Sequence record: NC_019517.1
Length of the DNA stretch: 64,000 bases
Reading direction: 5' to 3' (one strand)
Source of the DNA: Escherichia phage FV3
Of this stretch, positions 29,246-33,085 are shown piece by piece. The notes under the pieces are model-generated. The model saw only the letters and a list, made by a program, of their open reading frames with translations, had not been told where the DNA came from and did no database searches. Each line of letters begins with the position of its first letter. The first letter of the stretch is position 1. The position numbers and the translations under genes were made by a program.

Positions 29246-32200
29246 TTAGTCGTGAGACTCGTTCCAAGGTCCCTGGAAGCTAGAGTTTGAACGACTAACT
29301 ATTACGGTTGGACAAGATATTGTAACTCCTGTCACGCTTGACGTTGACCATGGTGTGTATATCTCGACGATAATGTCTATGGTTTGTTCACCAAGACCTG
29401 TTATCCCTACCGCACACATGCCGTTGTTGTCGTTTCCGTACTTCTTACCTGCAAGGATTTGATGCCCGGCTATCCAAACGTTAAGCTGGGAGCCAGACAA
29501 GGTTCCGTTCAGTTTAAAGAAGAATGTTACGTTCTTACCTTGTCCTGAAACGTTGTCCACATATCTCCACCTCCAACGGCAAACCCTCTGCTGCGAGTTA
29601 TATACCGGAGGGCAGTCACCATAGGTCCTATGTGCAACGATTGCACCTTCGAACTGGTTAGCACGGATAACGGAAGCTTCTACACGTCCACGGAATGTAC
29701 CTCCTGTTGCATCTATGGTGCCTCTAAAGCTACCATTATTGGCATAAACATCTCCACGGAAGGTACCACTGGTGGCGTTAACTGCCCCTGTGAAGTTACC
29801 TGCACTAGCGTTGATATTACCTTTCACCCACACATCCATAAACTGGGCGTGCCCGTTCTTGTTAATATACCAACCGTATTTGTGGTACCCGTTGCCATCG
29901 TAGTTGTTAGACGAAATTTCTTGTGCAATCTTGGCAGAAGAGATCGTCCCGTTCTCTATAAAGGCATCTTTCAAGAACGCTTGGTTGTTCTTAATTGCGA
30001 AAGCAAGGGTTGCTGTTCCATTCCCAGGGTTGTATACCGCAAAGTTGTTTGCACTAACCATGAAGTATGATTGAACTTGGCCTCCAGAACCTTCCATGCC
30101 CAATTGGATACCTGCCACATACTTATTCCCTGCGGAGTCTACCTGTATTTTTGTGCCCCATTGAGCATTTACTTTGCCCTCTAAGTCGGTCACAGCCTTA
30201 GATGTTGTAGCCACTGCAGCTCTTAGCTCTGATACATCCCCAACATCATCAATGATCTCCTGCTTAGCAACAGCAAGTTCTTGACGAATAGCTGACGCTG
30301 TGCCGTTAATAAGATCCACAGTCGCTTTGTTGGTATCGGAGATTGTAGCGTCCAGTGCTGTTTTTGTGGAGGTCAGCTTACCATCCAAATCCGCAATCGC
30401 CTGTTTGTTGGTAGAAATCTCCCCACGTGCAGAAGTTATCTGCTCCGACAGTGCAGAGGTTTTCTGATTCAACAAATCTGTGGTGGCCTTGTTGGTATTG
30501 GCAATCAAGGTATTGAGATCAGTTTTTGCGGTAGTTATCTTACCATCAAGGGTGGTATAGTTCTTAGATACTGTCGCGTTTGTCTGACTGATCTTTTGAT
30601 CCAGAGTTTCAGAGGTCCTGTTGAGAAGATCCACTGTCGCCTGGTTGGTGCTTAAGATGCTTGCATCAAGTTCCGTTCTCTGGGTATTGATCTTGCCATC
30701 TAGAGTTTTATCTCCGGCAAGGTATCCGCTCTCCACACCACCTATTTGTTCTACCAACTCCCCTTTGGCTGCAACCAATTTCTCGTCCAAAGCCTCTGTC
30801 TTTTTGTTCAGAAGATCAGTGGTTGCTTTATTGGTTGTCTCAATCAGGGATGCCAGTCTTCCACTTTCGGTGTTCAGATCGTTGGTGAACTTGTTCTGTG
30901 CAGCAACAAGTTTCTTATCCAGCGCTGTGATATTGCCATTGACATCCTCAAACTTCTGAGTTGTATCTGTAACTACCGCGCCTATCCTATCCCCAAGTTG
31001 TTGGAATGCCTCATCTACCCTTCCGTCCATGTACTTGTTAAGTTCTGTGACACGATTTTCAACATCTTCAATAGAGGAATCTAAAGTGCTCATCAACTCT
31101 TTATAAGTCTCTGTCTTTTTAAATTCCGCATCTATTTGAGGCATCAAATCTTCAATAGAGGTGTAGCAGCGTGCAGCGCATTCTACAAACTGGGAGCTTC
31201 CAAAAGCGTTTGTGGTTCGAATATACCAATAATAAATCTTATCGTTCTGCAGACCTTCAGATGTCCAAGTTGAACCAACACCCATGCGGGTGGCTTTTGA
31301 AGTGACGGTTGCATCACTTGTGTCAGGCAACCTTGTCATACCAGATGTCCAAAAGTCATACTGGGTGCTTACACTTGCTAAGTCCCTGCTGTGTGGAATC
31401 AGGGTGATAGCAAAGTACCCCTGCTTAACTTCTACAGAAACCGGAGCTTCAGGTGCCTGAATGTTAAACTCGCAGTACGCTTCTGGAGATACACCACCTT
31501 TATAAGATGTTGCAACCACGGTTGCTGTGTATGACCCTTTGGTCAATCCCTCTACGCGGACAAACTGCTCGACTGTTTGTGCTGTCCAAATAATCTCTCC
31601 GTTCTTTCTTACCTGCACAATGTTTTGAGCATAAGTCCCAACGTTGTCCCAAGCCAAAACACCGTGAGTTACTTCCCCAGCTTGAAGAACAGAGTATCTA
31701 AAGTTTTGCGGTTGAGCTACACCGGATGGAGATACCGGGATATCTACATCCCCAGAGTCTGGAAGTTGCCCTGTGGCATCATTCCACTCTTTAGCATCTT
31801 GACGGAGTTTTACCTTGACACCACCCTTTTTGGTGAACTCCCATTCAAGAACCCTCATCTCTTGACCCACTATACCAATACTTGGAAGGTCCATCGTAAC
31901 GTAACGCCCAGGCTTAAATTTAAAACCACGCATATTGCAGGTTACTTCAATAATCCTGCCAGCTCTGGCACGTCTTAAGAATATTGCGGAAACACGCTGA
32001 GCCTGATAAGGACTGGTAACAAAGCGATAATCTATATCAATTATCTTTCTTTCTCCGTCCTTCTCCACCCACTCAGGCACGAACACTGATGGGAAGTCTG
32101 TTTCAGAATACCCTTTGGTTGGACTAGTGAATCTACCAGTTATTGTGTTCGATCTTTTGTCGAAGGAGGCTTCCGGATAGATCTTAACCTCACCGCAAAC

Positions 32201-33085
32201 ACAGTCCTCACTCAGTGTCATTGTTGCTGGGCCATAGTATGCACCTACCAGCAGACCATACTTACCAGCTACATAGCTAAGATCTGCACCACAAGCTTTC
32301 AGCATTTCTGCCATAATACTTGCTGGTGCTTCATCCGTGTCGAACTCACCATTAATGGTGTAACGACTCTCACTGGTTCCGTCTGCGTTTCTTACAGCCT
32401 CGTCGCATATGTTGGCAGCCTCCTTGAAGGACTCCCAGTTGATGGTTTCGTCAGGACATTTAAGGTATGTTCTTAAATAGTCCAGAATCACCAAGGCAGC
32501 GTTATTGGTATACACCTCTTTACTGGTGCGAGGATCATAGCATTTTTTACCAACCTTGATGAGTGTAACGTTTGGCAACCCAAAAGGGAACTTGTTAGGG
32601 TCAAACCTGAAGCTAACACGCAGCCAGCTGATCCCTCTACCTATCATGTCCGGTGACCACGATGGGCAGTGTGTACCCATGAAAGGATCAGAGGTTTTTC
32701 TGTCGTTATGTAGCTCCCACGATACCAAATCCCCATACGAGGAAATAGGATTACCGTCGATAAGTATATCTTCTATACCTTCCAGAGAGTGATTGGCAAG
32801 AACAATAGCACAATGAAGGGTTCTGTCTCTATCCTGCTCCAAAAACGCAAGCAATCCAGATGTGCGTGTCTTACCATACACTACAGAACAAGGTGCAGCA
32901 GAAGATCTAAGAAGCTTTTGCCTATCTTGCTGACTTCTGTAAGATTTGTTACCCTCGAAAATCTTATCCAGAGTTCTGGTGGTAACAGTGTTCAGGCTGT
33001 CAGCCAGAGCTGCCTTGGATGCGTTCCAGTCATAGCTTGAAGATCTTGCAGAAGCAACGATGTTATCAATCATTGCAATTGGCAT
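29246..33085 (-). CDS. Large tail fibre protein (1279 aa) with internal coiled-coil repeats and C-terminal beta-helix-like repeats
   Basis: Four degenerate TNKATTDLLN repeats; C-terminal G-x-F-(R/T)-G repeats. Confidence 0.5.
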   Translation of the reverse strand: MPIAMIDNIVASARSSSYDWNASKAALADSLNTVTTRTLDKIFEGNKSYRSQQDRQKLLRSSAAPCSVVYGKTRTSGLLAFLEQDRDRTLHCAIVLANHSLEGIEDILIDGNPISSYGDLVSWELHNDRKTSDPFMGTHCPSWSPDMIGRGISWLRVSFRFDPNKFPFGLPNVTLIKVGKKCYDPRTSKEVYTNNAALVILDYLRTYLKCPDETINWESFKEAANICDEAVRNADGTSESRYTINGEFDTDEAPASIMAEMLKACGADLSYVAGKYGLLVGAYYGPATMTLSEDCVCGEVKIYPEASFDKRSNTITGRFTSPTKGYSETDFPSVFVPEWVEKDGERKIIDIDYRFVTSPYQAQRVSAIFLRRARAGRIIEVTCNMRGFKFKPGRYVTMDLPSIGIVGQEMRVLEWEFTKKGGVKVKLRQDAKEWNDATGQLPDSGDVDIPVSPSGVAQPQNFRYSVLQAGEVTHGVLAWDNVGTYAQNIVQVRKNGEIIWTAQTVEQFVRVEGLTKGSYTATVVATSYKGGVSPEAYCEFNIQAPEAPVSVEVKQGYFAITLIPHSRDLASVSTQYDFWTSGMTRLPDTSDATVTSKATRMGVGSTWTSEGLQNDKIYYWYIRTTNAFGSSQFVECAARCYTSIEDLMPQIDAEFKKTETYKELMSTLDSSIEDVENRVTELNKYMDGRVDEAFQQLGDRIGAVVTDTTQKFEDVNGNITALDKKLVAAQNKFTNDLNTESGRLASLIETTNKATTDLLNKKTEALDEKLVAAKGELVEQIGGVESGYLAGDKTLDGKINTQRTELDASILSTNQATVDLLNRTSETLDQKISQTNATVSKNYTTLDGKITTAKTDLNTLIANTNKATTDLLNQKTSALSEQITSARGEISTNKQAIADLDGKLTSTKTALDATISDTNKATVDLINGTASAIRQELAVAKQEIIDDVGDVSELRAAVATTSKAVTDLEGKVNAQWGTKIQVDSAGNKYVAGIQLGMEGSGGQVQSYFMVSANNFAVYNPGNGTATLAFAIKNNQAFLKDAFIENGTISSAKIAQEISSNNYDGNGYHKYGWYINKNGHAQFMDVWVKGNINASAGNFTGAVNATSGTFRGDVYANNGSFRGTIDATGGTFRGRVEASVIRANQFEGAIVAHRTYGDCPPVYNSQQRVCRWRWRYVDNVSGQGKNVTFFFKLNGTLSGSQLNVWIAGHQILAGKKYGNDNNGMCAVGITGLGEQTIDIIVEIYTPWSTSSVTGVTISCPTVIVSRSNSSFQGPWNESHD
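30300..30860 (-). repeat. Four degenerate tandem DNA repeats (135-185 nt spacing) inside the 1279-aa fibre gene
   Basis: Core GATC(C/A)AC(A/T)GT(C/T)GC(C/T)T(T/G)(G/A)TTGGT recurs at about 30313, 30494, 30628 and 30814 on the plus strand, encoding TNKATTDLLN-type segments. Confidence 0.5.

What the first reader, a model, noticed from the sequence alone, without database searches (positions are those of the whole stretch)
30300..30860. Degenerate tandem repeats inside the 1279-aa fibre gene
Four copies of a conserved DNA core (GATCCACAGTCGCTTTGTTGGT-like), spaced 135-185 nt apart, encode repeated TNKATTDLLN-(K/Q)KT segments of a coiled-coil shaft. Such repeats are hotspots for length variation by recombination or slippage and could tune fibre length.
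Basis: seen in the sequence. Interest (0 to 1): 0.35.

Follow-up and report, generated by a model that had tools for sequence, protein, structure and literature searches.

The report
Repeated coiled-coil shaft in phage fibre
The repeats are real: they are old, diverged copies of a 44-62-residue segment that build the long alpha-helical shaft of a lambda-J-type fibre protein in an rV5-like E. coli phage, and related phages carry three fixed shaft lengths rather than actively varying copy numbers.

Summary
The window is Escherichia phage FV3, an rV5-like Vequintavirus. Gene 29246-33085 (- strand, 1279 aa) is a lambda-J-type tip or central-fibre protein.

The four TN(K/Q)AT(T/V)DL(L/I)N cores exist, at aa 751, 813, 864 and 918. 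They head four units of 62, 51, 54 and about 58 aa. A fifth, degenerate 44-aa unit lies upstream.

- **Protein level:** unit similarity is highly significant (z 8-19, 40-52% identity).
- **DNA level:** similarity is weak (61-69% identity, longest shared exact run 9 nt).
- **Structure:** the units lie in an about 330-residue helix (aa 644-975). Hydrophobic periodicity is 3.62 residues. There is one predicted Gly-rich break. The C-terminal part is homologous to the trimeric alpha-helical shaft of the F-type pyocin central fibre.

The slippage-hotspot idea is not supported. All 120 closest homologues are exactly 1279 aa.

Vequintavirus phages do carry three discrete shaft alleles with 4, 5 or 7 units: 43, about 56 and 13 phage records. 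Each allele is invariant in length. The alleles are old (dS saturated) and sharply bounded inside an otherwise 90-99% identical gene. They reassort independently of neighbouring fibre genes.

Verdict: an ordinary structural repeat with an interesting cassette polymorphism.

The parts
29246..33085 (-). Gene for the 1279-aa lambda-J-type tip / central-fibre protein (100% identical to 'putative tail fiber protein' of Escherichia phage FV3)
   Evidence: ORF. Pfam Phage_Tail_Tip 131.5 bits and Ig_J_second 105.8 bits. Lambda J PDB 8iyk E 3e-28. Identity to the FV3 protein.
31130..31609 (-). Two Ig-like domains (aa 493-652) that precede the shaft
   Evidence: Pfam Ig_J aa 493-545 (24.1 bits, below the 29-bit cut-off) and Ig_J_second aa 547-652. 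They align to lambda J residues 666-851.
30161..31156 (-). Alpha-helical shaft, aa 644-975. It is the variable cassette of the gene.
   Evidence: Hydrophobic period of 3.62 residues. AF2 helices at aa 644-782 and 791-975. Absent from the alignment to lambda J, which covers query 497-685 and 957-1115. Divergence island: 47-77% nt identity between alleles against 90-99% in the flanks. It is the only part of about 40 kb that partitions by allele class.
30836..30967 (-). Unit R0, aa 707-750, 44 aa, with a degenerate head (DTTQKFEDVN)
   Evidence: R0 vs R1 score 53, z 5.0. It is the same 44-aa unit type as the two extra units of the long allele.
30650..30835 (-). Unit R1, aa 751-812, 62 aa, core TNKATTDLLN
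30716..30739 (-). Predicted helix break GVESGYLA (aa 783-790) inside the extra segment of R1
   Evidence: AF2 model has non-helical residues 144-151, pLDDT 43-55. The segment is present in the medium and long alleles and absent from the short allele.
30497..30649 (-). Unit R2, aa 813-863, 51 aa, core TNQATVDLLN
30335..30496 (-). Unit R3, aa 864-917, 54 aa, core TNKATTDLLN
   Evidence: Aligns to the P22 gp26 needle repeat.
30161..30334 (-). Unit R4, aa 918-975, core TNKATVDLIN. It ends in the junction motif AAVATTSKAVTDLEGKVNAQ.
   Evidence: The junction is conserved with the F2-pyocin fibre (AAIQTTSQAVTSLDGNVKAM).
29795..30217 (-). Phage_Tail_Tip (PF09327) domain, aa 957-1097, the beta-structured distal part
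   Evidence: Pfam E 2.4e-38. Aligns to lambda J, T1 gp33 and the F2-pyocin fibre.

Best explanation
The flagged stretch encodes most of an about 330-residue alpha-helical shaft (aa 644-975). The shaft is most likely a three-stranded coiled coil. It joins the Ig-like domains of a lambda-J-type tip/central-fibre protein to its distal beta-structured 'tail tip fibre' domain.

The shaft was built by old serial duplication of a 44-62-residue segment. FV3 has five units; four begin with TN(K/Q)AT(T/V)DL(L/I)N. Unit lengths (44, 62, 51, 54 aa) are close to whole numbers of the 3.62-residue hydrophobic period (12, 17, 14, 15). The helix register can therefore run through the unit boundaries.

The repeats are structural building blocks that set the shaft length and so the reach of the distal domain. 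The estimated length is about 49 nm in FV3, at about 0.15 nm per residue. That figure and the link to reach are inference.

The copies are now too diverged at the DNA level to act as a slippage or unequal-recombination hotspot. Length diversity exists instead as three old, discrete shaft cassettes (4, 5 or 7 units; about 37, 49 and 64 nm). These circulate in the genus Vequintavirus. They are exchanged by homologous recombination in the highly conserved flanks of the same gene.

Shown here: the repeat, the helix signal, the homology, the three alleles and their age. Inferred: trimer state, lengths in nm, and that length matters for infection.
For: - **Repeat significance:** z 7.8-19.4.
- **Helix:** periodicity 3.62 residues at power 5.8, against a shuffle 95th percentile of 1.5. 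AF2 predicts two long helices.
- **Family:** PF09327 and PF24489 lie well above their cut-offs. Lambda J aligns on both sides of the shaft but not across it.
- **Shaft homology:** aa 874-975 plus the tip domain align to the F2-pyocin fibre, E 3.9e-18. [quoted passage not shown] Lambda J and the F2 fibre are present as three chains per PDB entry.
- **P22 gp26:** the trimeric needle repeat aligns to R2-R4, E 0.0016.
- **DNA divergence of units:** 61-69% identity, at most 9 nt of exact match. Third codon positions vary in the cores.
- **Length invariance among close relatives:** 120/120 homologues are 1279 aa. The 30 listed full-length phage matches span 3839-3841 nt.
- **Three alleles:** short, 732 nt between anchors, 43 records; medium, 972 nt, about 56 records; long, 1278 nt, 13 records.
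- **Cassette boundaries:**
- **Age and constraint:** dS is saturated in the shaft against 0.08-0.6 in the flanks. R1-R2 dN is 0.072 between the medium and long alleles, which indicates purifying selection.
- **Family-wide pattern:** the segment between the same two anchors ranges from 35 to 787 aa in 80 related loci. The long versions have their own internal repeats.
Against: - No structure of this protein or of an rV5-like baseplate was found, so the trimeric coiled coil and its position in the virion are inferred.
- AF2 confidence is moderate (mean pLDDT 58; 55-80 in the helices) and comes from a single sequence.
- A 3.62-residue period fits any amphipathic helix and does not by itself prove a coiled coil.
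- Strong purifying selection on unit sequences suggests more than a passive spacer.
- Nothing here shows that shaft length affects host range.
Confidence: 0.75

Rival explanations
1. The tandem units are an active hotspot where replication slippage or unequal homologous recombination changes copy number within phage populations, tuning fibre length on short time scales.
For: Unit number does differ between Vequintavirus lineages (3, 4 or 6 canonical cores). Indels between alleles fall roughly on unit boundaries, for example two extra 44-aa units in the long allele.
Against: - The longest exact match between any two FV3 units is 9 nt, and identity is 61-69%. The extra units of the long allele are equally diverged (62-70% identity, at most 13 nt exact).
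- 120/120 closest homologues are 1279 aa.
- The 43 short-allele and 13 long-allele records are invariant in length (match spans differ by at most 3 nt); the listed medium-allele matches (27 of about 56) span 961-972 nt.
- The alleles differ by saturated dS, so the events are ancient.
- Tandem Repeats Finder finds no array.
Confidence: 0.05
2. Fold-switch spring. As in the F7 pyocin central fibre, part of the coiled coil is metastable and refolds into a beta-prism on receptor binding. The distal tip domain seeds the change. The repeats would then supply strands of the prism as well as helix.
For: - The protein is homologous to F-type pyocin central fibres across the shaft/tip junction.
- The F7 paper predicts the switch for 21 of 24 siphophage homologues and gives a per-strand motif SxSxxMxxLxS (PMC12874032).
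- A position-weighted version of that motif is enriched in R3-R4 (aa 864-975): 5 windows against 1.6 expected, P about 0.02.
- AVTDLEGKVNA at the junction fits the motif exactly.
- A 22-residue sub-periodicity (two 11-residue strands) is seen in the long allele.
Against: - The strict motif is not enriched over the shaft (5 against 3.4 expected).
- The weighted motif is not enriched in aa 644-863 (P about 0.3).
- Small positions here are mostly Thr, whereas Ala dominates (68%) in the published motif.
- This phage has a contractile tail with its own hub and spike, so it does not need this energy source.
- AF2 gave only the helical form, but with a single sequence that is the expected bias.
Confidence: 0.12
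3. Docking scaffold. The shaft is a platform on which other fibre or spike trimers attach. In F-type pyocins, side fibres bind the shaft at a Gly kink. The conserved TNKATTDLLN heads or the GVESGYLA break would be attachment sites, so unit number would set how many or which appendages are carried.
For: - F2-pyocin side fibres attach to the homologous shaft at a Gly-containing kink (PMC13455828).
- A single Gly-rich helix break is predicted in R1. It is present only in the medium and long alleles.
- Unit sequences are under purifying selection beyond what a spacer needs.
- rV5-like phages carry many fibre proteins whose arrangement is unresolved (PMC8594841).
Against: - A scan of about 40 kb of the tail, baseplate and fibre cluster in 15 phages found no other segment whose alleles follow the shaft allele.
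- The neighbouring variable fibre gene reassorts freely: EmilHeitz and Murica are discordant.
- No partner was identified, and no structure is available.
Confidence: 0.12

Closest known systems
[quoted passage not shown]
   Same: Same protein family and the same position of the shaft, between the FN3/Ig-like domains and the PF09327-type distal beta domain. Direct sequence alignment covers aa 874-1078, E 3.9e-18, with a conserved junction motif. Both have a Gly-containing interruption.
   Different: - The FV3 shaft is about twice as long (about 330 residues against about 163 for the switching part).
- It is visibly built of five 44-62-aa repeats, and it sits in a contractile-tailed phage.
- The upstream two-thirds (aa 644-863) has no detectable similarity to the pyocin shaft.
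- Fold switching and side-fibre docking are untested here.
Phage T1 central fibre protein gp33 (PDB 9l9p; PMC11945409) and other T1-like / Webervirus J-like proteins
   Same: J-like protein with a long C-terminal alpha/beta extension. Its shaft also contains tandem repeats (REVIATETEALSREIDQLKAQIGDDIQASLTDI twice in the alignment). tblastn hits of many such phages start inside the FV3 repeat block.
   Different: The repeat sequence and period differ. The T1 C-terminus (821-1172) was not resolved, so it offers no experimental structure for the shaft. It comes from a siphovirus tail tip.
Lambda gpJ (PDB 8iyk)
   Same: Ig-like domains and the tip-fibre domain align (query 497-685 and 957-1115). 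It is a trimer in the virion.
   Different: Lambda J has only a short linker where FV3 has about 270 extra residues. The N-terminal hub of FV3 does not align to lambda J by phmmer.
Seuratvirus (siphovirus) J protein, e.g. vB_Eco_SLUR63
   Same: Closest non-Vequintavirus relative: 56% identity over aa 48-1124. The three upstream genes are homologous too.
   Different: It has only 73 residues between the two anchors and no TNKATTDLL units.
P22 gp26 tail needle coiled coil (PDB 4lin)
   Same: Trimeric phage coiled coil with internal repeats. xALDGRVTTAE-type segments align to R2-R4.
   Different: The match is weak (E about 0.002) and the protein is otherwise unrelated. This is a resemblance of coiled-coil repeats, not membership.

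Membership tests
Lambda-J-type tip attachment / central fibre proteins | Phage_Tail_Tip domain (PF09327) above Pfam's gathering score | tested here: met
   131.5 bits against a cut-off of 22, aa 957-1097
Lambda-J-type tip attachment / central fibre proteins | J-type Ig-like domains upstream of the fibre part | tested here: met
   Ig_J_second scores 105.8 bits against a cut-off of 27. Ig_J scores 24.1 against 29, below the cut-off. The region aligns to lambda J 666-851.
Lambda-J-type tip attachment / central fibre proteins | N-terminal hub region homologous to siphovirus J proteins, with the accompanying small tip genes upstream | tested here: met
   56% identity to Seuratvirus J from aa 48. 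The three upstream genes are 33-45% identical and collinear. The module is not adjacent to the tape-measure gene here.
Lambda-J-type tip attachment / central fibre proteins | Trimer closing the tip of a non-contractile tail | not testable with these tools
   The host phage has a sheath, hub, spike and wedge. The location of this protein in the virion is unknown.
Three-stranded alpha-helical shaft of central fibre proteins (F-type pyocin type) | Long continuous helix with coiled-coil hydrophobic periodicity | tested here: met
   Period 3.62 residues, power 5.8 against a shuffle 95th percentile of 1.5. AF2 helices at aa 644-782 and 791-975.
Three-stranded alpha-helical shaft of central fibre proteins (F-type pyocin type) | Sequence homology to a solved shaft | tested here: met
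   Met for aa 874-975 only, against F2-pyocin fibre 988-1081. No match was found for aa 644-863.
Three-stranded alpha-helical shaft of central fibre proteins (F-type pyocin type) | Trimeric oligomer state | not testable with these tools
   Only single-chain prediction is available. Homologues are three chains per PDB entry.
Coiled-coil to beta-prism fold-switching segment (F7 pyocin) | Recurring strand motif SxSxxMxxLxS through the segment | tested here: inconclusive
   The strict pattern gives 5 hits against 3.4 expected. The weighted pattern is enriched in aa 864-975 only (P about 0.02) and not in aa 644-863 (P about 0.3).
Coiled-coil to beta-prism fold-switching segment (F7 pyocin) | Two alternative folds of the same residues | not testable with these tools
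   This needs trimer prediction with varied alignment depth, or an experiment.
Slippage-prone tandem repeats (copy-number-variable arrays) | High nucleotide identity between neighbouring units | tested here: not met
   61-69% identity and at most 9 nt of exact match. No Tandem Repeats Finder array.
Slippage-prone tandem repeats (copy-number-variable arrays) | Copy-number differences among near-identical genomes | tested here: not met
   120/120 homologues are 1279 aa. Each of the three allele classes is invariant in length apart from rare 1-3 nt differences in match span.

The most novel reading that the evidence does not exclude
The repeat-built shaft is not a passive rod. [quoted passage not shown] The unit number (4, 5 or 7) would set the stroke or reach. 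The three ancient cassettes would be kept in the population because different host surface layers favour different lengths.
Probability: 0.1. Interest if true: 0.7.

Novelty: new member of a known kind. Interest (0 to 1): 0.3.

Why it matters
Taken alone, the finding is an ordinary feature: fibrous phage proteins are often built from diverged coiled-coil repeats.

Three results are worth keeping.
- **Variable part of the gene:** the shaft, not the distal domain, is the variable part of this otherwise very conserved gene.
- **Polymorphism:** it comes in three old, discrete lengths that recombine freely. This natural length polymorphism could be tested by cassette swaps for effects on adsorption through O-antigen or capsule layers.
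- **Homology:** it ties an rV5-like myovirus fibre to the central fibres of F-type pyocins and T1, for which shaft docking and fold switching were recently described.

Tried and rejected
- **DNA-level repeat tools.** Tandem Repeats Finder gave only a 1.9-copy 24-nt hit at 30422-30466. The exact-seed repeat finder gave no family matching the units. Self-blastn gave at best 30 nt at 83%.
- **Self-blastp.** It returned no off-diagonal hits. I replaced it with Smith-Waterman comparison of units against shuffles and an ungapped shift scan.
- **Chance or composition artefact.** Rejected by composition-preserving shuffles.
- **Function of the DNA core itself, including its GATC.** Rejected. Differences sit at third codon positions, and GATC is simply the codons Asp-Leu.
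- **Strict fold-switch motif.** Not enriched.
- **Covarying partner gene.** A scan of about 40 kb in 15 phages found none.
- **Literature.** The phi92 cryo-EM paper lists no J-like protein. No rV5-like baseplate structure was found. The 'rV5_ev' names are not explained in the library. The O177 phage paper's main-text passages on tail fibres do not mention this protein and it never uses the term 'mass spectrometry'.
- **Exhaustive search with the repeat block.** Only 5 representatives had E <= 1e-3 among 1.84 billion. One is a spurious eukaryotic coiled coil, so this repeat sequence type is narrow.
- **Second structure job with a deep alignment.** Not run, because only near-identical homologues were admissible as alignment rows.
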